A stretch of 64,000 nucleotides of DNA from Squalus acanthias (Eukaryota), in contig CM059432.1 of assembly GCA_030390025.1 (NCBI GenBank), positions 53,136,001 through 53,200,000 on the forward strand, written 5' to 3'. The translations under genes and the position numbers were made by a program. A model generated the notes under the pieces. It saw nothing but the letters and a program-made list of their open reading frames with translations. It had not been told where the DNA came from and searched no databases. Every line of letters begins with the position of its first letter. Position 1 is the first letter of the stretch. Positions 1,045-45,829 of this stretch are shown here, piece after piece.

Positions 1045-2885
1045 GGACTACATTGGTGACTCTTCCGACGCCCTCCACCACTTTAACAGTTTCCAGTTTC
1101 CTGGCCCCAACCGTCTCCTTTTCACTATAGACGTACAATCCCTCTACACCGTCATCCCCCACTGGGACGGCCTGAGGGCGCTCCGCTTCTTCCTTGAACA
1201 GAGGCCTAACCAGTTCCCTTACACCACTACCCTCCTCCGCCTGGCCGAACTTGTTCTCATATTGAACAACTTCTCCTTTGACTCCACTCACTTCCTCCAA
1301 ATTAAAGGTGTTGCTATGGGGACCCGCATAGGCCCTAGCTATGCCTGCCTTTTAGTGGGATACACGGAACATTCTTTGTTCCGGTCCTATTCAGGTCCTC
1401 TCCTTCACCTCTTTTTCCGGTACATTGATGACTGTATTGGTGCCGTTTCCTGCTCTCGCCCTGAACTAGAAAATTTCATTCACTTTGCTTCCAATTTTCA
1501 CCCTTCCCTCACCTTCACATGGTCCATCTCCAACTCTTCCCTTCCCTTCCTCAACTTCTCTGTCTCCATTTTTGGGGATAGGCTATCAACAAACATCCAC
1601 TATAAGCCCACTGACTCCCACAGCTACCTGGACTACACTTCCTCTCATGCCACTCCCTGTAAGGACTCTATTCCACTCTCCCAGTTTCTCCATCTCCAGC
1701 CGCATCTGTTCTGACGATGCCACCTTCCATGCTAGTGCCTCCGATATGTCTTCCTTTTTCCTCAACCAAGGATTCCCCTCTACTGTGGTTGACATGGCCC
1801 TTGACCGTGCCCGTTCCATTTCCCACACTTCTGCTCTCACCCCTTCCCTCCCTCCCAGAACCACGATAGGGTTCCCCATGTCCTCACCTTTCACCCCACC
1901 AGTCTCTACATTCAACGGATCAGCCGCCGCCATTTCCACCACCTCCAGCGTGATCCCACCACGAAACACATCTTTCCCTCCCCTCCCCTTTCAGCATTCT
2001 GAAGGGACTGCTCCCTCCGCGACAACCTGGCCCACTCCTCTATCACCCCCAACACCCCTTCCCCTTCCCATGGCATCTTCCCGTACAAGTGCAGGAGATG
2101 CAACACCTGCTCTTTCACCACCTCCTCCCTTCCCACTGTCCAGGGCCCCAAACACTCCTTCCAGGTGAAACAGTGATTTACTTGTACTTCTTGCAATTTA
2201 GTGTACTGTATTCGCTGCTCACAATGCGGTCTCCTCTACATTGGGGAGACCAAACGCAGATTGGGTGACTGCTTTGCTGAACACCTCCGTTCAGTCCATA
2301 AGCGTGACCCTGATCTTCCGGTCGCCTGTCACTTTAATTCTCCGCTCCACTCGGACTCTAACCTCTCCTTCCTTGGCCTCTTACACTGTTCCAACGAAGC
2401 TCAACATAAGCTTGAGGAACAGCACCTCATCTTTCGATTAGGCACTTTACAGCCTTCTGGACTCAACATCGAGTTCAACAATTTCAGACTATGACCTTGG
2501 CCCCCATGTTTTCTTTGCTCTTTCACATGGCAGCTGTCGATCATTCTGACATTTACACTTCATCTCGAGTCATCTTTTGTTTCTTAACTTGTCCCATTAC
2601 CATCTCCTTTTGCCTTGCACCATCATCCCTTTTGTCTTTCAATTTCTCCTGCTTTCCATCCTATCACAGTCCTTCCCTTTGTTCTTTCCTCCCCTCCTCC
2701 TTTCTCTGCTCCTACACTTGCTTACAAATCTGTTACTTCTCCAACTTTTTCCAGTTCTGATGAAGGGTCATCAACCTGAAACGTTAACTCTGTTTCTCTC
2801 TCCACAAATGCTGCCTGACCTGCTGAGTATTTCCAGCATTTTCTGTTGTTGCTTCAGATTTCCAGCATCCACAGTATTTTGCTAT
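1045..2885 (+). mobile_element. Degraded 5'-truncated Penelope-like element, family B (RT + GIY-YIG + pLTR)
   Basis: ORF fragments carry PLE RT motifs (GVAMGTRIGPSYA, RYIDD) at 1262-1714 and a GIY-YIG endonuclease (YCIRCSQCGLLYIGETKR) at 2201-2494. They are broken by frameshifts and stops. A hammerhead motif lies in the 3' pLTR. Confidence 0.9.
2753..2789 (+). ncRNA. Minimal type I hammerhead ribozyme (PLE family B)
   Basis: AGTT-CTGATGA-AGG..CCT-GAAACGTT-AACT: stem I AGTT/AACT, conserved core and palindromic ACGT stem III. Confidence 0.8.
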
Positions 2886-19860: not shown

Positions 19861-20158
19861 TTCATTTCTGTGTATGCTTTTATTGGAAATGTACTCAGGA
19901 CCTAAATTTATAGACCCTTTGACACTCCAGTCTGGGCATGTCAGAAAAGATCTATTTTTGCTGCTTCCACTTCACTAGAGAGGTTGTATTGAAGTTTTGC
20001 TATCTGCTCAGGCTGACATGCAGACAATCTCTATCACAGGGACTCGACATTCGATCGTGCCCAAAAACGGGAGCACAGTGGGGCGGGGCGCACGCTGCAC
20101 GCACCTGTTCATGTGGATGCAGAGATCACAGGAAATTTGTGATGGCAGCTTATCATCA

Positions 20159-20319
20159 TTGTGAATTCTGGGAGATTCTCTCACAGCTACCTTACCTGAA
20201 GAAGGAGCGAACAGCTCCGAAAGCTTGTAAAATTAAATAAATCTGTTGGACTATAACCTGGGTGTTGTGCGACTTCTGATTTTTGTCCACCCCAGTCCAA
20301 CGCCGGCATCTCCACATCA
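20159..20319 (+). mobile_element. Solo 161-bp pLTR fragment of PLE family A
   Basis: Near-identical to 37208-37327 plus the 3' tail. Flanked by an 8-bp duplication TATCATCA (20151-58 / 20320-27). Confidence 0.9.
20192..20230 (+). ncRNA. Minimal type I hammerhead ribozyme (PLE family A)
   Basis: TTAC-CTGAAGA-A-GGAGC gaaca GCTCC-GAAAGCTT-GTAA. Confidence 0.85.
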
Positions 20320-22019
20320 TATCATCACGAGACAGCTGAGCAGCCAATGCTACTCGTGCTGCTTATTGGCTGCGCACCTGTTTGCGAGGGGGTGGGGGGT
20401 GGGGTGGGGGGGATATTGGGCGTCATTGATGCCACTTAAAGGCAACCTGCACCCCTTAAAGGGGAAGCGCACTGTGGCTGCAGGCTGCAGGAAAGGCTTG
20501 AAACTGAGTGACATGTCTGGAAGAGCTGCGGATAGGTCCCTCCGATTCTCAACTGCAGCAAGCACATTCTCAAAATAGCTCACAAGGCTACTGCTAACAC
20601 ACTCCCTTCATTCTTGCAGAAGGTGCCACTTAATTTGAGAGAGCAGACAGGAGGAGGGAAAAGCCGCCTACACATCATGTCGCCACTGGAGGAGCAGGTC
20701 CTGGAGATGACGGGCATGGGACGAGTCATGGCTGTAGCTAGTGACAATGCTGGAGGAGAGGTCCTGCATGGTTTCTTCACACCTTACCCTCTTTTTCCTT
20801 TTATACTTCGCTCACCCTGCACACTCTGCATGACAAACTGAAGCTGCTAACCCTTGACACTAAAAAGCTAACCTTTGTCCTCCTCTTTCTTCTCAGGTGC
20901 AGACAATGTAGAGGTTCCCTGTACAGTTGAGAAAGAGGAGGCCAGCCTTCCTGAAAATGTAACCTCACTCAATCTGACCATAGCAAGCATCAGTGCAGAG
21001 ACTGGCACCAAGCATTCTTCAGAGAGTAGGTAAGAGCATGGTCACCGGCCCCAATTGTGCAGGAGCTAGGGCAGGGGGATGAGATGGCACAGGATCCAGC
21101 TCACTGGAGGGCGAGATCACATCCTAGCCTTGCTTCAGAAGACTCAGATGTTGACTGTGAAGACCTAGACTATTGAAGAAGGCTAGTGGCGATACACCAG
21201 GTAATGCTAGATGCACTGTCATCCTGCCAGCGAGCTTGCATGCAATGTCACAGAGCATGAGGAGTCCAGTCAGAAATTACAAAAAATTCTTCCCAGAACT
21301 CACAATTCAGTTGCCCAATGGAGAAAATAGCCAAAAAAAAGGCCAAAAAATTGACCAGCACCCTAAATGGAGACACCAGCAACTAACCTGTATTGAGGGG
21401 ATGAGGCCTGTAAATAGCATTCCCATAGTGTCCTTTTAGATCATTAGTGGCAAGATTTGCTGGGCAAGTTTATCATGTGGTGACTCAGACACTAGGCAGA
21501 CCAATTTCACAAAAAGTGTCCTACAACTAGCGTAAGACTCTTATTTAAATATTATAATGAAGTTTCTGCATGCTTCCTGTGTGTACCCTGCGTCTACGGG
21601 GTGGCTAATCGAAAATGTCAGGCGGCGCACTTGTAGTGTGCATTGCCTGCAATATTGAACCCCTAGCTGCCCATTTCATGACTGAGAAACGGGCACAGCG
21701 CGATCGAATTTCTAGGTCAGTGAATGTTGCTACACCATTAAACTTTTATGCTACTGGATCCTTCCAAACTACTGCAAAGGATATCTTCTTGATCCACCAG
21801 TCTGTAGTCCATAGATGTATCAAGAAAGTAACAGATGCTATGTTTGCAAGGGACAAAACCGTCATCTCTTGGCTGTGGAAAGGTAGCATCAGCCAAGCAG
21901 AACACAGAACTTTACTGGGTGGCAGGGTTTCTAAGAGCCAGGGCATATAGGTACCACCATTGCAGCTATCAGGGCTTCACACATCAACCACACTACCTGT
22001 ATGAACAGAAAGGGCTTCC

Positions 22020-31662: not shown

Positions 31663-34600
31663 ATGGAGAGGGTGAGAGAACGAGCTCATCGCTTCACCGA
31701 GCGGGCCTTGGATGCTCTGGTTGGCGCGGTGGAGCGCAGAAGATGTATACTCTTCCCTGAGAGTGGCAGGAGGTCTTTGCCACGCGAGTTCAGAAGAGTG
31801 TGGAGGGAGGTGGCTCAGAGCATCTCCTCCAGGAGCATGGTGCCCAGGACCCATACTCAATGCCGCAAAAAGTTCAGTGACCTCACTCGAGTCGTCAGGG
31901 TGAGTGGCTTTTTCTCAATACCTCTCCATCCCTCCATCTCAACCTCACTCTATGGCCAGAGGGTCTTAAAACCCCAATGCACAACACTCATCCAACACCT
32001 ATGGCCCTTTCATGAAACACACACACACATTCCACACTTTGCATACAGTAAGGGCTATTCACCTATGGGAGGCACATCAGGCAAGACCATGGCTGCATAC
32101 AGTAAGGGCTATTCACCTATGGGAGGCACATCAGGCAAGACCATGGCTGTATATTTACTCAGATGCTGTCCTTTTTCTTACATGATGTGGAGATGCCGGC
32201 GTTGGACTGGGGTGGACAAAAATGAGAAGTCGCACAACACCAGGTTATAGTCCAACAGATTTATTTAATTTTACAAGCTTTCGGAACAGTTCGCTCCTTC
32301 GTCAGGTAAGTTAGCAGTGAGAGAATCTCCCAGAATTCACAATTTAAACACAGACAAAATATATTCAAATCTTTCCTACATCAAAGAGCACAGCCAAGAC
32401 AATGAGATGTGTCCCAGGGGGTCCAACGTGTCAAACCACCTGCTGGCTGCATATCCTGTCAATCTGTGTAGGTTCTTGTGTTAGTCTTTTAAAAAAAAAA
32501 ATACCTGGGAAGACCGGCCATGATGTCAAGTCACGTTCTGTATCGTGACATGAACCCGATATCGCGATTGAGGCCATCCTCATGAGTGCGGAACTTGGCT
32601 ATCAGTTTCTGCTCTATGATTTTGCGCTGTCGTGTATCTCGAAGGCCGCCTTGGAGAACGCTTACCCGCATATCCGAGGCTGAATGCCCCTGGCTGCTGA
32701 AGTGTTCCCCGACTGGGAGGCAACCCTCCTGCCTGGCGATTGTTGCGCGGTGTCCGTTCATACGTTGTCTCAGTGTCTGCATGGTCTCGCCGATGTACCA
32801 TGCTCTGGAGCATCCTTTACTGCAACGTATCAGGTAGACAACGTTGGCCGAGTCACATGAGTATGTACCGTGTACCTGGTGGGTAGTGTCCTCACGTGTG
32901 ATGATGGTATCTGTGTCCATGATTTGGCATGCCTTGCAGAGGTTGCCGTGGCAGGGTTGTGTGGTGTCTTGGTTGCTGTTCTCCTGAAAGATGGGTAATC
33001 TGCTGCGAACGATGGTACTTTTGAGGTTAGGCGGCTGCTTGAAGGCGAGTAGTGGAGGCGTGGGGATGGCCTTAGCAAGGTGTTCGTCGTCATCGATGAC
33101 ATGTTGAAGGCTGCGAAGAACATGGCGTAGTTTTTCCGCTCCGGGGAAGTACTGGACGACGTAGGGTACTCTGTTGGTTGTGTCCCGTGTTCGTCTTCTG
33201 AGGAGGTCTATGCGGTTTTTCGCTGTGGCCCGTCGGAACTGTCGATCGACGAGTCGAGCGTCATATCCCGTTCTTACGAGGGCGTCTTTCAGTGTCCGTA
33301 GGTGTCCATCGCGTTCCTCCTCGTCTGAGCAGATCCTGTGTATTCGCAGGGCTTGTCCATAGGGGATGGCTTCTTTAACGTGGTTAGGGTGGAAGCTGGA
33401 GAAGTGGAGCATCGTGAGGTTGTCCGTGGGCTTGCGGTAGAGTGAAGTGCTGAGGCGTCCGTCTTTGATGGAGATTCGTGTGTCCAAGAATGAAACCGAT
33501 TCTGAGGAGTAGTCCATGGTGAGTTTGATGGTGGGATGGAACCTGTTGATGCTATCGTGTAGTCCTTTCAGTGATCCTTCGCTGTGGGTCCAAAGGAAGA
33601 AGATGTCGTCGATGTATCTGGTGTACAGCGTTGGTTGGAGGTCCTGTGCAGCGAAGAAGTCTTGCTCGAACTTGTGCATGAAGATGTTGGCATATTGGGG
33701 TGCGAATTTGGTCCCCATGGCTGTTCCGTGTGTTTGGGTAAAAAAATGGTTGTCGAAGGTGAAGACATTGTGGTCAAGGATGAAGCGGATGAGTTGTAGG
33801 ATGGCGTCCGGAGATTGGCTGTTGTTGGTGTTGAGTACTGAGGCTGTCGCAGCGATGCCGTCATTGTGGGGGATATTGGTGTAGAGTGCCGATACGTCCA
33901 TTGTGACGAGGAGTGTTCCTGGTTCAACTGGTCCATGGGTGCTGAGTTTCTGCAAGAAGTCTGTAGTGTCGCGACAGAAGCTGGGGGTTCCCTGTACGAT
34001 GGGTTTCAGGATGCCCTCGACGTACCCAGAGAGGTTCTCACACAGGGTTCCGTTGCCTGATACGATAGGACGTCCGGGTGTGTTGGCTTTGTGTATCTTT
34101 GGGAGGCAGTAAAAGTCTCCTACGCGGGGAGTACGTGGGATGAGAGCGCGCAGGATGTTTTGAAGGTCTGGATCGAAGGTCTTGATCAGTCTATTGAGTT
34201 GGCGGGTGTGTTCTTTGGTCGGATCTGCGGGTAGCTGTCTGTAGTGTTCCTGGTTGTCCAGTTGTCGGTATGCTTCTTTGCAATAGTCCATTCTGTTCTG
34301 TATGACGATGGCTCCTCCTTTGTCCGCTGATTTGATGACGATGTTGCGGTTGGTCTTGAGTGCGTGGATGGTGTTGCGTTGTGCTCGGGTGACATTCTGG
34401 ACTGTCTTGTGAGTACGGCTGATGAATCTGGCGTTGATGCATTTCCTGACAGCTTGAGCATACATGTCAAGCTTAGGGTTGCGACCCTCCGGAGGGGTCC
34501 AATTTGACTCTTTCTTCCTCGGTTGTAGCACTGCGGTTCCCTCTGTCTGCTGTTCCGGATCATTGATTGTCCCATTAGGAATGTTGCTGACATCTTGGGA

Positions 34601-37600
34601 TTTGTGGTAGTATTCCCGGATCCTCATTCTCCTGATGAATTCCTCTGTGTCCGCCGCGAGACCGATGGGGTCCATTTTGGTGGTGGGGCAGAACTTGAGC
34701 CCTCGGGCGAGAACTTCGATTTCGTCTGGTTGAAGGGTGTGGTCCGACAGGTTGACGATGGACTTCCCTGTGGTTGCAACCGTGGTACCGGGGGAGGCTT
34801 GGTTGTAGCTGGTGGTTACGCCGAGTTTCTCAAGCTTCCTGTTCTTGATGCGCATGTAGGCAGCGTAGTTCCGTTGCCTCGTCTGTTTGGCGGTGTCTCG
34901 TAGCTGGTCTGCTGTGTCCTGAGCACAGGCTGAGAGCATGGACTCTATCTTGGTTTCAAGGTTGCGACGTCTGCTGTAGAGCTGGTGTACGAGATGGTTG
35001 AGGAGTGTGCGACAGGTACGATGGCAAAGTCTCTCAGCGTAGTCTGTGTTGTATGTCGACTTGAGTGGGTTCGTGATCTGTAGTCCTTTCGGAATCTTGT
35101 CTGCTTTCTTGCATCTCTGCAGGTACTTGATGTCTGTGTCAATATGCGCGATCTTCTTGGCGATTCTCTCCACTTTGAGCCGGCAGTTTGCGGTGTCAAT
35201 AGAGGTCATGATGTGGAGATGCCGGCGTTGGACTGGGGTGGACAAAAATGAGAAGTCGCACAACACCAGGTTATAGTCCAACAGATTTATTTAATTTTAC
35301 AAGCTTTCGGAACAGTTCGCTCCTTCGTCAGGTAAGTTAGCAGTGAGAGAATCTCCCAGAATTCACAATTTAAACACAGACAAAATATATTCAAATCTTT
35401 CCTACATCAAAGAGCACAGCCAAGACAATGAGATGTGTCCCAGGGGGTCCAACGTGTCAAACCACCTGCTGGCTGCATATCCTGTCAATCTGTGTAGGTT
35501 CTTGTGTTAGTCTTTTAAAAAAAAAAATACCTGGGAAGACCGGCCATGATGTCAAGTCACGTTCTGTATCGTGACATGAACCCGATATCGCGATTGAGGC
35601 CATCCTCATGAGTGCGGAACTTGGCTATCAGTTTCTGCTCTATGATTTTGCGCTGTCGTGTATCTCGAAGGCCGCCTTGGAGAACGCTTACCCGCATATC
35701 CGAGGCTGAATGCCCCTGGCTGCTGAAGTGTTCCCCGACTGGACGCCATCCTACAACTCATCCGCTTCATCCTTGACCACAATGTCTTCACCTTCGACAA
35801 CCATTTTTTTACCCAAACACACGGAACAGCCATGGGGACCAAATTCGCACCCCAATATGCCAACATCTTCATGCACAAGTTCGAGCAAGACTTCTTCGCT
35901 GCACAGGACCTCCAACCAACGCTGTACACCAGATACATCGACGACATCTTCTTCCTTTGGACCCACGGCGAAGGATCACTGAAAGGACTACACGATAGCA
36001 TCAACAGGTTCCATCCCACCATCAAACTCACCATGGACTACTCCTCAGAATCGGTTTCATTCTTGGACACACGAATCTCCATCAAAGACGGACGCCTCAG
36101 CACTTCACTCTACCGCAAGCCCACGGACAACCTCACGATGCTCCACTTCTCCAGCTTCCACCCTAACCACGTTAAAGAAGCCATCCCCTATGGACAAGCC
36201 CTGCGAATACACAGGATCTGCTCAGATGAGGAGGAACGCGATGGACACCTACGGACACTGAAAGACGCCCTCGTAAGAACGGGATATGACGCTCGACTCG
36301 TCGATCGACAGTTCCGACGGGCCACAGCGAAAAACCGCATAGACCTCCTCAGAAGACGAACACGGGACACAACCAACAGAGTACCCTACGTCGTCCAGTA
36401 CTTCCCCGGAGCGGAAAAACTACGCCATGTTCTTCGCAGCCTTCAACATGTCATCGATGACGACGAACACCTTGCTAAGGCCATCCCCACGCCTCCACTA
36501 CTCGCCTTCAAGCAGCCGCCTAACCTCAAAAGTACCATCGTTCGCAGCAGATTACCCATCTTTCAGGAGAACAGCAACCAAGACACCACACAACCCTGCC
36601 ACGGCAACCTCTGCAAGGCATGCCAAATCATGGACACAGATACCATCATCACACGTGAGGACACTACCCACCAGGTACACGGTACATACTCATGTGACTC
36701 GGCCAACGTTGTCTACCTGATACGTTGCAGTAAAGGATGCTCCAGAGCATGGTACATCGGCGAGACCATGCAGACACTGAGACAACGTATGAACGGACAT
36801 CGCGCAACAATCGCCAGGCAGGAGGGTTGCCTCCCAGTCGGGGAACACTTCAGCAGCCAGGGGCATTCAGCCTCGGATATGCGGGTAAGCGTTCTCCAAG
36901 GCGGCCTTCGAGATACACGACAGCGCAAAATCATAGAGCAGAAACTGATAGCCAAGTTCCGCACTCATGAGGATGGCCTCAATCGCGATATCGGGTTCAT
37001 GTCACGATACAGAACGTGACTTGACATCATGGCCGGTCTTCCCAGGTATTTTTTTTTTTAAAAGACTAACACAAGAACCTACACAGATTGACAGGATATG
37101 CAGCCAGCAGGTGGTTTGACACGTTGGACCCCCTGGGACACATCTCATTGTCTTGGCTGTGCTCTTTGATGTAGGAAAGATTTGAATATATTTTGTCTGT
37201 GTTTAAATTGTGAATTCTGGGAGATTCTCTCACTGCTAACTTACCTGACGAAGGAGCGAACTGTTCCGAAAGCTTGTAAAATTAAATAAATCTGTTGGAC
37301 TATAACCTGGTGTTGTGCGACTTCTCACTTTTTCTTACAGGCCAAGCTGGCGCATAATCGGAGACAGCAGCAACGGACGGGTGGAGGGCGGCCTCAGCTG
37401 CAACCCCTCAGCGATCTTGAGGAGCGCGTCCACAGGATTGTGGCAAGCCGGGTGATCGGTCCTGTCGCCACTGGAGACGCCGACCCCGTTCTGGACAGCA
37501 ATAGTAAGGTCATCACCTTTTTGTCCCCTGTCCTTCCACTTGTCCCTCACAACACCAGCCTTTGACACTTTCAATCCAACTTGCTAACTCGCTGCACTTA

Positions 37601-38951: not shown

Positions 38952-40113
38952 CTAGAAGCGGCTTGCTATTAGCCGTTGACGGACGGCCCTTGCAGTTTCA
39001 CCATTGTGTGCCGCCCTCCCGCCTTGGTGCTGCTGATGATCATCCTCCTCGTCCTCTTCCTCCTCTTCCTCCTCCTCCTCTGGTGGTGCTTCAAGTGCCT
39101 GGTGGCATTGGCTTGGTCCTGAGGATTGCCATGTTATGCAACATGCAGCACACGACTACGAAGTTGGATACTCGCTCAGGCGAGTACTGCAGGGCTCCTC
39201 CAGAATGGTCGAGACAGCGGAACCGTTGCTTCAGCACGCCGATTGTGCGCTCAATTATGTTCCTGGTAGCTTGATGGCTCTCATTGTACCGCAGCTCAGC
39301 AGGGGTGTTGGGCGTACGGAGCGGTGTCATCAGCCAGGTGCTCAATGCATACCCCTTGTCCCCGAGAAGCCAACCAACTGGCTGATGCGGTGCCTCGAAA
39401 AGTTCTGCCACAGTAGTCTGGCGCAGGATAAAAGCATCGTGGCAGCTGCCAGGATAGTGGGCATTGACAGCGAGTATCAGCTGTCTGTGGTCACAGACCA
39501 ACTGAACATTCAAGGAATGGAACCCCTTTCTGTTCCGGAATTCCTCGGCATTCTCATGCGGAGCACGCAAAGCCACATGCGTGCAGTCAATGGCGCCCTG
39601 CACCATGGGGAAGCCCGCTACCCTCGCAAAGCCCAGAGCGTGGTCACGCTGCTTGTCTGGGGTCATGGGGAAAGAGATGAACTCTCATCTCCTTTTAAAG
39701 AGGGCATTTGTGACCTGCCGGATGCAGCAATGCACCGCGAACTGGGAGATATTGGCGAGGTCCCCAGCAGCAGCTTGAAATGAGCCAGTAGCGTAAAAGT
39801 TGAGAGCCACTGTGACCTTCACTGCCACCGACAGAGACGTCCTGGACCTCAGTTGAGGCTGCAGATCTGGCTGCAGCAGGTGGCAGAGCTCAGTGACCAC
39901 CTCCTTGCTGAATCGCAGCCTTCGCAAACACAGCTCCTCAGACATATGAATGTAGGAGAGCTGTTCACGATATACCCTGGGAGGGTAAGCTCTCCTGTAC
40001 ATACGCCTGTTGGCCCTCCTCCGTCTGGCCATCATTGCCACTCTCTCTCTGCGTCTCTGTATCCTCCGATTCAGCTGGAGCAGGACGACGCCCCCAATCA
40101 GTGCAGCCCCCAT
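38952..40113 (-). pseudogene. Harbinger DDE transposase of copy 1 (nonsense at 39685-87, frameshift near 39095)
   Basis: IDCTH, HDAF, GDKGY and IERTIG motifs present. CGA>TGA relative to copy 2. Confidence 0.9.
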
Positions 40114-41870
40114 AGTCTCTTTGCAAGCAAAGTAATGAAGGACAGCAACTAAAGTACTAGCGAAGTTAGGATCAATAGGCAAAACTACCTCACAAAGCAT
40201 TGAGTCAATGCAGAAGTCTCTCTTTCTCTCTCTCCGAATCTCTCTCTCTCTCTCAGAACGAGTGGTGCAAAAATGTCGACCACAGAAAAAGACAGGAAGA
40301 GGCCCCCTTTAAATAGCGCCCCCCCCCAGCCCCACAGCGATTGATAGCGTTCCAGTCTTCCGGTCGTTGGATGCGCCAGACGGTAAGGCAGGGGGCTCCA
40401 CTCAATTTCCGCTCCAGGGCGCCACAAGGGCGTTGCACCATGGAATGACGTCACAATCTGCGCGCGCAGGTGGTCGCAGCGGTAAGTTTTAGCGCCGCTG
40501 CACAATCTCTAGTTAAGTTCCCGAGCGGCGCAAACATCGCTGCGCCCGGGCGTTAGCGGCTTTGCGCCCCATTAGCGCCCTCTTAAGGCGCTAACGGGAG
40601 GCGCAACCAACTGAATTTTTACCCCTAATCGTTGAAAAATTAGCATCAGGGGAGTGGAGCGCTAAATCAAGTGCTAACCATTTCTCTTAGGGCGCTAAAG
40701 TGTGTGAGGGGGCAGTAGCGCAGAGCGCTGAAGAACATGCATCAGAGGCTCCTTCCCTCGCTTAAAGGGACAGGCCAATGATGGTTTGCAACATTCTTCT
40801 TCTTAGTTCTGTTGGGCCAGGGGACCTGCGCAACTTCTATTACAGCCCAAATCATTCTCAGAGAGTGGAGGGCTTAGGCATCGTGCAGCAATGAGGCTTC
40901 AAAAACTTTCAGCAGGCACCAGGCTGGTGCGAAGAATAAAGTTTGGCCTATCTGACCACCACTGCCTTTAATTATTGCTCCCCAAGCGGCCAGCTGAGGT
41001 GACAACGCCTCCTGTTGCTGCCGTTGTTGACACCTGGCGATGCAGCAGGGGACGGGAGCAAATTTCACATTCGGGGCGGTAACGGGGCGTTGCGCACTTG
41101 ACGACGTTACGACCTACGGGGCGCTAGAGACTGAGGCGGTAAGTGTTAGCGACAGGGGAGTTCGTGGGCGTCGCTGAATTCGCCGCGCCCGGTCGGTAAC
41201 CCCTTAGCGGCCCATTACCATCACCCGTAGGCAATAACGGGAGGCACAAAGCAGCCGAAGTTCTAGCCCATAGGATCATAGAATGGCTACAGCACAGAAG
41301 GCGGCCATTCGGCCCGTTGAGCCTGTGCCGGCTCTCTGCAAGAGCACTTCAGCTAGTCCCACTCCCCCGCCATTTCCCCGTAGCCTTGCAAATATTTTTC
41401 CTTCAGGTACTTATCCAACTCCCTTTTGAAAGCCATGATTGAGTTTGCCTTCTCCACCTTTTCAGGCAATGCATTCTAGATCCTAACCACTCACTGCATA
41501 AAAAAGTTTTTTCCTCATGTCACCTTTGGTTCTTTTGCCAATCACCTTGAATCTGTGTCCTCTGGTTCGCGACCCTTCCACTAATGGGAACAGTTTCTCT
41601 CTATCTATTCTGTCTAGACTCCTCATGATTTTGACTACCTCTATCAAATCTCCTCTCAACCTTCTCTGCTCTAAGGAGAACAACCCCAGCTTCTCCAGTC
41701 TATCCATGTAAATGAGAAGTCCCTCATCCCTGGAATCATTCTCGTAAATCTTTTATGCACCCTCTCTAAAGCCTTCACATCCTTCCTAAAATGCGATGCC
41801 CAGAATTGGACACAATACTCCAGCTGAGGCCGAACCAGTGTTTTATAACTTCCTTGCTTTTGTACTCTAT

Positions 41871-44226: not shown

Positions 44227-44244
44227 TATGCCTCTATTTATGAA

Positions 44245-44464
44245 AATGAGAAGTCGCACAACACCAGGTTATAGTCCAACAGATTTATTTAATTTTACAA
44301 GCTTTCGGAGCTGTTCGCTCCTTCTTCAGGTAGGGTAGCTGAAGAAGGAGCGAACAGCTCCGAAAGCTTGTAAAATTAAATAAATCTGTTGGACTATAAC
44401 CTGGTGTTGTGCGACTTCTCATTTTTGTCCACCCCAGTCCAACGCCGGCATCTCCACATCATGA
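44245..44464. mobile_element. 220-bp fold-back (hairpin) PLE family A mini-element with two hammerhead cores
   Basis: ~87-bp perfect inverted arms (44243-44329 / 44339-44425). 14-bp duplication CCTCTATTTATGAA (44231-44 / 44465-78). Confidence 0.92.
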
Positions 44465-45829
44465 CCTCTATTTATGAAGCCCAGGATCCTGTATGCTTTT
44501 TTAACCGCTTTCTCAACCTGCCCTGCCACCTTCAATGATTTGTGCACATGTACCCCCAGGTCTCTGTTCATGCACCCCCTTTAGGATTGTACCCCTTAGT
44601 TTTTATTGCCTCTCCTCATTCTTCCTACCAAAATGTATCACTTCGCACTTTTCTGCGTTAAATTTCATCTGCCATGTGTCTGCCCATTTCACCAACCTGT
44701 CTATGTCTTCTTGAAGTCTATCCCTATCCTCCTCACTGTTCACTATACTTCCAAGTTTTGTGTCATCTGCAAATTTTGAAATTGTGCCCTGTACTCCCAA
44801 GTCCAAGTCATTAATATATATTGAGAAAAGCAGTGGTCCTAGTACCGACCCCTGGGGAACACCACTGTATACCTTCCTCCAGTCCGAAAAACAACCATTC
44901 TCCACTACTCTTTGTTTCCTGTCACTTAGCCAATTTGGTATCCATGCTGCCACTGTCCCTTTTATTCCATGGGCTTCAAGTTTGTTGGTAAGCCTATTAT
45001 GTGGTACTTTATCAAACGCCTTTTGGAAGTCCATATACACCACATCAACTGCATTGCCCTCATCAACCCTTTCTGTTACCTCATCAAAAACTCGATTAAG
45101 TTAGTTAAACACGATTTGTCTTTAACAAATCCGTGCTGTCTTTCCTTAATTAATCCACACTTGTCCAAGTGGCTGTTAATTTTGTCCTGGATTATCATTT
45201 TTAAAAGCTTCCCCACTACCAAGGTTAAACTGACTGGCCTGTAGTTGCTGGGTTTATCCTTACACCCTTTTTTGAACAAGGGTGTAACATTTGCAATTCT
45301 CCAGTCCTCTGGCATCACTCCCGTTTCTAAGGAGGATTGGAAGATTATGGCGAGTACCTCCGCGATTTCCTCCTTAACCTCCCTCAGCATCCTAGGATGC
45401 ATCCCATCCGGTCCTGGTGACTTAGCAACTTTAAGTTCAGACAGCCTTTCTAGTACCTCCTCTTTATCAATTCTTATCTCATCCAGTATCTTCATTACTT
45501 CCTCTTTCACTATGACCTCCTCTTTCACTATGACTTATTTGTATGTATGATAGTGCTTTACAATAGGTACACCAGGAGGTTTGAGACAATTCCTTAGTCT
45601 AGCCCATTCCTTGTAACTAACTGGCATGATTACTTGATTGTTCTTTTTGCCTTAAAACTAACGCTGTATCTCTCATCTCATTCTGGGGTTGATTGTGAAG
45701 GGGAGGGCAGGGCAGGGGGGCTCAATATCCCTGAATTAAAATTCAATCTAGTCTAAGGGTTTCTTCGTCACTTACTGATCAGCTAAACTCAGTCCTCCGA
45801 AATACTTTTTGACAGTATAACTCGTACAA

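What the first reader, a model, noticed from the sequence alone, without database searches (positions are those of the whole stretch)
32183..37327. Apparently intact, very recent ribozyme-bracketed Penelope retroelement: a 3026-nt self-cleaving RNA unit
Seen: an intact ~892-aa RT/GIY-YIG ORF, apparently identical tandem pLTRs, a near-identical inverted copy and a perfect 12-bp TSD. Two same-strand hammerheads lie exactly 3026 nt apart and bracket the whole ORF, with the ATG about 90 nt after the upstream cleavage site. Known: PLE pLTRs often carry minimal type I hammerheads whose palindromic stem III works as a dimer. Inference: the two tandem hammerheads could pair through AAGCUU in one transcript and excise a unit-length, uncapped, circularisable RNA that is both mRNA and template. 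This would be a potentially active vertebrate PLE.
Basis: partly seen in the sequence, partly recalled or inferred. Interest (0 to 1): 0.85.

Follow-up and report, generated by a model that had tools for sequence, protein, structure and literature searches.

The report
Young Penelope retroelement, probable circular template
This is a young, unbroken copy of a known kind of jumping gene (a Penelope-like element) in a shark-like genome, and the ends of its many sister copies suggest that its long copies are likely made from a 3,026-base RNA loop that its predicted self-cutting RNA motifs would cut out, an idea published in 2014 for which I found no in vivo test.

Summary
Observation confirmed: 892-aa RT/GIY-YIG ORF, identical 534-nt pLTRs, two hammerhead motifs 3026 nt apart, inverted arm, 12-bp TSD; 7 of 7 other host-transposon copies show the empty site. 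The anatomy is textbook, and the dimer-cleavage/circle idea is Cervera & de la Peña 2014. The copy is not unique: 23 of 39 long copies examined have full ORFs, and this one carries private missense changes. The family adds evidence on mechanism. The hammerhead varies as if under selection. Arms end at two sites, +52 and +92 past the cut, and 46 of 47 head-to-head pairs carry one of each. Reverse transcription does not stop at the cut (11,034 of 11,733 read through), so a cut linear RNA is not the main template. Likely reading: uncut linear RNA gives stubs, an endless template, probably a circle, gives long copies. No RNA data were obtainable. This scan had already noted the one-sided tail and the stub ends in other genomes, and paired pLTR hammerheads elsewhere in this one.

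The parts
32171..32182 (+). Left copy of the 12-bp target-site duplication CTTTTTCTTACA (the splice-acceptor tract of the host Harbinger Myb/SANT gene)
   Evidence: empty site in 7 of 7 other host copies
32183..35743 (-). Main arm, 1.18 units: 5'-truncated upstream unit, full unit, ending at the long (L) end, +92
32183..32222 (-). 40-nt 'tail' (+53 to +92), present at this end only
32183..32716 (-). Downstream pLTR, identical to 35209-35742
32260..32265 (-). AATAAA at +10 after the downstream hammerhead, followed by a GU-rich stretch; candidate poly(A) signal (untested)
   Evidence: sequence
32271..32309 (-). Downstream minimal type I hammerhead motif; predicted cut between 32275 and 32274
32531..35209 (-). 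892-aa ORF: N-terminal helices, DKG (296), telomerase-like RT with YIDD (532), CX4CXXC linker (753-761), GIY-YIG endonuclease with two Cys inside the core (790-807) and His 820/836
35209..35742 (-). Upstream pLTR (3' part of a truncated upstream unit plus the 91-nt leader)
35297..35335 (-). Upstream minimal type I hammerhead motif; predicted cut between 35301 and 35300
35342..35374 (-). Candidate core promoter: TATA-like TTTAAAT at 35374 and initiator-like CTCACT with A at 35344, 44 nt upstream of the cut (inferred; untested)
   Evidence: pile-up of 5' ends at 31-55 nt upstream
35741..35743 (.). Head-to-head junction of the two arms, 2-3 nt of overlap
35741..37327 (+). Inverted 5'-truncated arm, 0.52 unit, ending at the short (S) end, +52
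37241..37279 (+). Third hammerhead motif, in the inverted arm
37328..37339 (+). Right copy of the TSD; with the following G it restores the host splice acceptor

Best explanation
This is a young, full-length Penelope-like retroelement, likely of the Neptune type, inserted in an intron of a Harbinger transposon, and its long copies are likely reverse-transcribed from a ligated 3026-nt RNA circle that its two predicted hammerheads would excise. Shown: the anatomy; two fixed arm ends at +52 and +92 past the cut; one of each in head-to-head insertions with a TSD of about 12 bp; read-through of the cut site; repeats within a locus that share one haplotype. Inferred steps: (1) transcription starts about 44 nt upstream of the first cut and ends at the AATAAA just past the second, so the precursor holds two hammerheads and one leader; (2) the hammerheads cut as a dimer through AGCU, probably with protein help, and a host ligase closes the unit; (3) the protein, probably as a dimer, cuts both target strands about 12 nt apart leaving 3' overhangs, and each 3' end primes in the leader, one at +52 and one at +92; (4) on uncut linear RNA both cDNAs run off at the RNA start and give stubs; on the circle they pass the junction and go round more than once, which rebuilds the upstream pLTR; (5) the two cDNAs join head to head by microhomology.
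For: Hammerhead under selection: in 289 motifs N7 takes four states (159 C, 92 G, 36 A, 2 U) while the other core positions are at least 285/289 constant (residue 17: 277 U, 12 C); helix I pair 3 shows U-A to C-G 13 times; helix II pairs hold in 286-289 of 289. No run-off at the cut: 11,034 of 11,733 exact +1..+22 matches continue into GAAAGCTT; 4 insertions end within 3 nt of the cut against 2.9 expected. First pass: 21 of 104 insertions stop 31-55 nt upstream, 6.5 expected, p 5e-6; second pass: 0 of 33 (Fisher p 0.004). Arms reach 1.67, 1.97 and over 2.2 units. At 37 diagnostic sites tandem repeats disagree in 14 of 832 comparisons (313 expected for unrelated copies) and the two arms in 6 of 454 (175 expected); no disagreement recurs in the same direction in two loci. 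46 of 47 unselected head-to-head pairs are S+L; TSD 12 nt in 21 of 44, range 10-14. The S arm reaches further in 22 of 46 pairs, which a fold-back of one L-primed cDNA cannot give. In vitro, an Anolis PLE protein cuts and extends both strands, starts at two internal sites that define the tail, is predicted to be a dimer, and its hammerhead cuts only with protein (PMC11167929, main text read). The circle model is in PMC4209133.
Against: In PMC11167929 hammerhead mutants did not affect insertion in vitro, unprocessed RNA was the main substrate, no RNA-seq reads ended at the cut site, and the two start sites did not differ between strands. Naiad/Chlamys PLEs form pLTRs, inversions and tails without canonical hammerheads (PMC8557442 section 15). 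Folding does not favour the active dimer: -14.1 kcal/mol against 2 x -7.5 for monomers and -20.3 for another duplex (no tertiary contacts or Mg modelled). The triplet is CUU, a weak one (recalled). Helix I pair 4 is broken in 73 of 289 motifs. Same-haplotype arms show one donor, not one RNA molecule. Dimer formation of this protein could not be tested.
Confidence: 0.55

Rival explanations
1. Long copies come from uncut RNA without a circle: the RT jumps from the RNA 5' end to a 3' end using the roughly 75-nt terminal redundancy, or copies read-through transcripts of multi-unit donors. The hammerhead does something else (trimming, translation) or is a passenger.
For: [quoted passage not shown] PMC8557442: hammerhead-less PLE clades have the same anatomy. 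A jump would also homogenise the pLTRs. Multi-unit donors exist (L066, L054).
Against: Plain read-through from a start at -44 would stop every long copy there; 33 of 33 go on. The core is conserved as for catalysis across subfamilies.
Confidence: 0.27
2. The template is always endless (circle or long tandem) and the first-pass stops at 31-55 nt upstream mark a barrier to early synthesis, such as the folded ribozyme or a bound protein, not an RNA 5' end; on the second pass the template is already paired with cDNA, so the barrier is gone.
For: Explains the first-pass/second-pass contrast with one template. The peak is 25 nt wide and arm lengths are correlated at all sizes (Spearman 0.83).
Against: The stops lie just beyond the 5' edge of the ribozyme, not at its 3' edge where a barrier would first be met (hazard 0.010/nt at 31-50, 0.001-0.005 at -8 to 30, 0.002 at 61-80). 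A TATA-like and an initiator-like motif sit 30 nt apart at the right place.
Confidence: 0.12
3. One reading: the cut, linear, uncapped 3026-nt RNA is itself both mRNA and template.
For: The ATG is the first after the cut. Self-cleavage can drive cap-independent translation in other systems (PMC13725137, passages read).
Against: RT starts at +52 or +92, so a linear cut RNA would give only 52- or 92-nt products ending at +1; these are not enriched. This speaks to the template role only; the mRNA role is untested.
Confidence: 0.04
4. The structure is an assembly artefact or a later recombination product.
For: Near-identical direct and inverted repeats can mislead assemblers (PMC8557442 passage). 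One long locus, L038, does look recombined (L+L ends, mixed haplotypes).
Against: Both flanks match the empty host site with an exact TSD; the arms differ at 3 sites; the same architecture recurs in dozens of loci.
Confidence: 0.02

Closest known systems
EN+ Penelope-like elements, Neptune/Nematis type (Craig et al. 2021, PMC8557442; Arkhipova et al. 2013, PMC3846280)
   Same: Single RT + C-terminal GIY-YIG ORF, CX2-5CXXC linker, partial tandem forming pLTRs, adjacent inverted truncated copy, 30-40-nt tail often at one end only, TSD.
   Different: No difference in kind. Here the one-sided tail is close to a rule (46 of 47) and the TSD centres on 12 nt; the papers say 'often' or 'optionally'. 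No microsatellite bias was evident in the TSDs seen (74-77% A+T).
Minimal hammerheads in metazoan pLTRs (Cervera & de la Pena 2014, PMC4209133; review PMC6765202)
   Same: Type I core, extra base after A9, G10.1-C11.1 pair, palindromic 15.2-16.2 with no loop III, tandem motifs about 3 kb apart around the ORF; dimer cleavage and circle proposed.
   Different: Their circle was a hypothesis without genomic tests; here read-through, second-pass and homogenisation counts bear on it.
PAc, Poseidon element of Anolis carolinensis (Frangieh et al. 2024, PMC11167929)
   Same: Two internal RT start sites that define the tail, both DNA strands cut and extended, AT-rich targets, protein-assisted hammerhead, predicted dimer.
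   Different: Poseidon clade without the Cys linker; its ORF starts inside the hammerhead and the start sites lie inside the ORF, whereas here both lie in the leader. They saw no strand difference in start sites; here the two ends of one insertion almost always use different sites.
Drosophila virilis Penelope (Schostak et al. 2008, PMC2377424)
   Same: Transcript of about unit length (2947 nt) starting in the upstream pLTR; tandem plus inverted structure; 34-37-bp repeat.
   Different: TATA-less promoter and a 75-nt intron there; no intron was identified here. [quoted passage not shown]
L1 twin priming (recalled, not read here)
   Same: Both target 3' ends prime cDNA; head-to-head join by microhomology.
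   Different: L1 arms copy different parts of the RNA; here both start 40 nt apart in the leader and overlap.

Membership tests
EN+ Penelope-like element | Single ORF with telomerase-like RT | tested here: met
   Pfam RVT_1 E 1.4e-8; model pLDDT 91.8, top structural matches are TERTs
EN+ Penelope-like element | C-terminal GIY-YIG endonuclease with CCHH motif | tested here: met
   VVYLIRCSKGCSRAWYIG at 790-807, His 820 and 836. The protein itself misses Pfam GIY-YIG at E 0.1; 12 of 22 aligned members match it
EN+ Penelope-like element | DKG motif upstream of the RT core | tested here: met
   DKG at 296, D and K in 110 of 111 homologues
EN+ Penelope-like element | pLTRs from a partial tandem, inverted truncated copy, one-sided tail, TSD | tested here: met
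Neptune clade | CX2-5CXXC linker between RT and EN (shared with Nematis, absent from Penelope/Poseidon) | tested here: met
   CHGNLCKAC at 753-761; the three Cys in 99-103 of 111 homologues; feature from PMC8557442
Neptune clade | RT phylogeny with named Neptune and Nematis references | not tested
   No named reference elements were available; homologues are unnamed or 'uncharacterized'. Neptune rather than Nematis rests on recalled host range
Minimal type I hammerhead of PLEs | Conserved core, helices I and II, palindromic stem III | tested here: met
   no Rfam match at gathering
Minimal type I hammerhead of PLEs | Self-cleavage as a dimer | not testable with these tools
   Folding energies do not favour the active dimer
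Active retrotransposon copy | Expression, progeny or insertion polymorphism | tested here: inconclusive

The most novel reading that the evidence does not exclude
The genome records a two-state RNA cycle: a hammerhead-cut, ligated 3026-nt protein-coding circle is the real replication template of a vertebrate retrotransposon, the uncut precursor yields only stubs, and a protein dimer primes both strands of a 12-nt staggered cut at two sites 40 nt apart on one RNA. That would account for pLTR regeneration, the inverted arm and the one-sided tail in a single mechanism.
Probability: 0.4. Interest if true: 0.75.

Novelty: new member of a known kind. Interest (0 to 1): 0.42.

Why it matters
How Penelope-like elements rebuild their upstream repeat, and what their hammerheads do, are stated as open in the papers read (PMC2377424 Discussion; PMC8557442 section 15; PMC11167929). 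This family has over 22,000 ends and many intact ORFs, so its copies act as a record of reverse transcription. They give exact predictions: start near -44, cut at a known base, circle of 3026 nt, priming at +52 and +92, 12-nt stagger. The element itself is ordinary.

Tried and rejected
Rfam at gathering threshold: no match. PDB by sequence: no match at E 1. The first comparison of repeats was inflated by gap placement and was redone. The all-against-all 5'-end mapping overran through other fold-backs and showed no peak; it was redone with non-fold-back references and per insertion. The first-pass estimate used few references and is superseded. Separate donors for the two arms: rejected (6 of 454 discordant). 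Fold-back of one cDNA as the general source of the inverted arm: rejected. Back-splicing to an exact unit: no AG|GT in the redundant stretch; weak evidence only. A donor or sister copy: L281 shares one private allele but has another pLTR haplotype. Predicted accessibility of the two start sites is mixed (A52 0.95 unpaired, A92 0.26) and was not used. Two papers were not held (Lunse 2017; Pyatkov 2004).
Full report
Observation. The insertion spans 32183-37327 between two copies of CTTTTTCTTACA, which occurs only there in the window. The minus strand holds an 892-aa ORF, 35209 to 32531, flanked by repeats that are identical over 534 nt. A plus-strand arm, 35741-37327, differs from the main arm at three sites. 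Hammerhead cores lie at 35331-35301 and 32305-32275, 3026 nt apart, with a third in the inverted arm; Rfam has no match. Below, +1 is the first base after the predicted cut. The ATG is at +92. The host is a Harbinger transposon: a Myb/SANT exon to the left and a DDE_Tnp_4 frame to the right. Seven of seven other copies fetched show the empty site with one copy of the 12-mer.

Protein. Pfam finds RVT_1. DKG, YIDD, a CX4CXXC linker and a GIY-YIG core with two cysteines and two downstream histidines are present and conserved in homologues. The AlphaFold model (pLDDT 91.8) matches telomerase RTs best. The nearest named homologues are shark proteins at 79-93% identity, hence a shark-like host. The linker places it with Neptune/Nematis, not Penelope/Poseidon (PMC8557442, passages read); no tree was built.

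Age and activity. Within-locus divergence is 3 of 1,997 sites, joint third lowest of 32 loci. The three arm differences are private or nearly so, and two are at CpG sites (from the sequence). The genome holds 22,244 exact matches to a leader 30-mer and 165 to a 29-mer across the ATG. Of 39 long loci (36 best BLAST hits plus 3, so not a random sample) 23 have an ORF of at least 880 aa from the same start. This copy has five residues found in none of those 24 ORFs; two are serines where most homologues have proline (76 of 111) or glycine (72 of 111), although serine occurs there in 7 and 12. No identical copy was among 40 scored hits. The family may be active; this copy is not singled out.

Ribozyme. 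Among 334 leader contexts, 289 carried both core halves under a search that allowed 3 mismatches per half (long and unselected loci pooled, so related copies count many times). N7 varies freely, loop II has 24 forms, the other core positions are nearly fixed, helix II changes are mostly to G-U, and helix I has a U-A to C-G change in 13 motifs. That is the pattern expected of a selected hammerhead. Against efficient spontaneous cleavage: stem III is a single pair without a loop, so only a dimer through AGCU can form it, and ViennaRNA does not favour that dimer. Low dimer activity (PMC4209133) and protein dependence (PMC11167929) are reported for other PLEs.

Two ends. Arms end at +52 (S) or +92 (L), give or take microhomology. 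In the unselected sample (first matches on the largest contig; 113 loci) 46 of 47 head-to-head pairs are S+L; the exception joins arms of two subfamilies. Shared TSDs are 10-14 nt, 12 in 21 of 44. In the long set one search listed 20 pairs: 17 S+L (16 with a TSD of 10 nt or more, one a cross-pair), 2 S+S and 1 L+L. One S+S (L046) resolves to S+L with a 12-nt TSD and a captured 100-nt flank, the other is a cross-pair of separate insertions, and the L+L locus (L038) has mixed haplotypes and no TSD that I could see. Because both outer ends are element 3' ends, both target 3' ends were used as primers, which implies a staggered cut with 3' overhangs (inference). Either arm can be the longer: S in 22, L in 9, 15 ties. 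That excludes copy-back of a single L-primed cDNA as the general route. Arm lengths are correlated (Spearman 0.83), and the two arms share a haplotype (6 of 454 discordant, 175 expected).

Template. A linear RNA cut at +1 and primed at +52 or +92 would yield products ending at +1. They are not enriched: 11,034 of 11,733 matches read through (these cover the GTAAAAT subfamilies only), and 4 insertions end within 3 nt of the cut against 2.9 expected. Earlier notes from other genomes suggested looking just upstream of the hammerhead. Here 34 of 140 arms, or 21 of 104 insertions counted by the longest arm, stop 31-55 nt upstream, against 6.5 expected. A TATA-like and an initiator-like motif lie at -74 and -44. 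For the second pass I took 70 of the 165 ATG-spanning places; 69 arms were recovered, 20 lacked the leader anchor (most end inside the leader) and were dropped, 8 more did not continue into the ORF, 8 stopped within 30 nt of the cut, and 0 of the remaining 33 stop at 31-55 (two look like one duplicated locus). Tandem repeats within a locus share subfamily alleles (14 of 832 discordant, 313 expected; L037, L047, L048, L049 and two stray segments left out), so pLTRs are rebuilt from one template. Arms reach more than two units.

Mechanism. The simplest reading is two RNA states. An uncut precursor, starting near -44 and ending near the AATAAA at +10 of the second repeat, has only one leader; primed there, RT runs off the 5' end and gives stubs. 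Cutting at both hammerheads and ligation gives a seamless 3026-nt circle on which both RTs can pass the junction and continue. Shown: ends, pairing rule, read-through, homogenisation. Inferred: start site, poly(A) site, cleavage, ligation, protein dimer, single RNA per event. I put 0.55 on this, 0.27 on uncut RNA with template jumping, 0.12 on a synthesis barrier instead of an RNA start, 0.04 on a cut linear template and 0.02 on artefact.

Comparison with print. PMC4209133 (parts 1-2 of 4: Results and Discussion) reports minimal hammerheads in tandem about 3 kb apart around PLE ORFs, in Neptune elements among others, and proposes dimer cleavage, ligation and more-than-unit reverse transcription. 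PMC8557442 (passages and section 15) and PMC3846280 (passages) describe the same anatomy, with the tail often at one end. PMC11167929 (parts 1-2 of 4, the whole Results text) explains the tail by two internal start sites and finds the hammerhead dispensable in vitro. PMC2377424, PMC6765202 and PMC13725137 were read as passages; bioRxiv 10.64898/2026.07.22.740005 as abstract, introduction and part of the methods. Eight searches found no paper that states a strict one-S-one-L rule or tests the circle on genomic ends. I read no supplements, and Lunse 2017, Pyatkov 2004 and Arkhipova 2006 were not seen; these may bear on that claim. Earlier notes of this scan report the one-sided tail rule and the stub ends in other genomes and an intact copy with paired hammerheads elsewhere in this one; they are unchecked AI notes and were used as leads only.

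Verdict. A real, young, textbook PLE: a new member of a known kind. The added value is the family-level evidence and the exact predictions it gives. Interest 0.42.

Noticed in passing
window 44243-44472: A second, tiny two-armed insertion of the same family (S and L ends, TSD TTCATAAATAGAGG, 14 nt with microhomology); both arms stop just upstream of the hammerhead core.
   Followed up: yes
window 20158-20320: Single-armed L-ended stub of the family with its own hammerhead motif.
   Followed up: partly
window 2757-2785 (+) and 3002-2974 (-): An inverted pair of hammerhead-like cores of another repeat family (CTGATGAA...GAAACGTT), arranged tail to tail.
   Followed up: no
window 31663-31899, 37341 onward, 39091-40200: Host Harbinger transposon with at least 40 copies at 98-99% identity. 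The insertion duplicated the Myb gene's splice acceptor, so exon 2 keeps one. The transposase appears as two frames (39685-40200 and 39091-39666); not examined.
   Followed up: partly
window 32300-32312 (+) and 35326-35338 (+): The antisense of hammerhead helix I and core reads CAG/GTAAGT, a perfect 5' splice donor; antisense insertions in host introns could be spliced.
   Followed up: no
L055, L061, L062, L072, L083, L142, L156, L166, window 44243: Many independent insertions share a target of the form CTCTATTTAT(A/G)AAGCCCAGGATCCC in another repeat; other targets also recur (L053/L054; L092/L179; L096/L097/L139). Suggests sequence preference.
   Followed up: no
L046:600-780: The L arm carries about 100 nt copied from the flank beyond the S end, inserted in its tail: a template switch between the two ends of one insertion.
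   Followed up: partly
L038: Two-armed locus with two L ends, no evident TSD and mixed subfamily alleles; duplicated on another contig (L047). Probably recombined.
   Followed up: partly
window 32040-32147: 54-nt tandem duplication in the host intron, present in 5 of 7 other host copies.
   Followed up: partly
table: Many homologues come from contigs of 2.7-3.1 kb, about one unit; either a circle or a collapsed tandem would assemble so.
   Followed up: no
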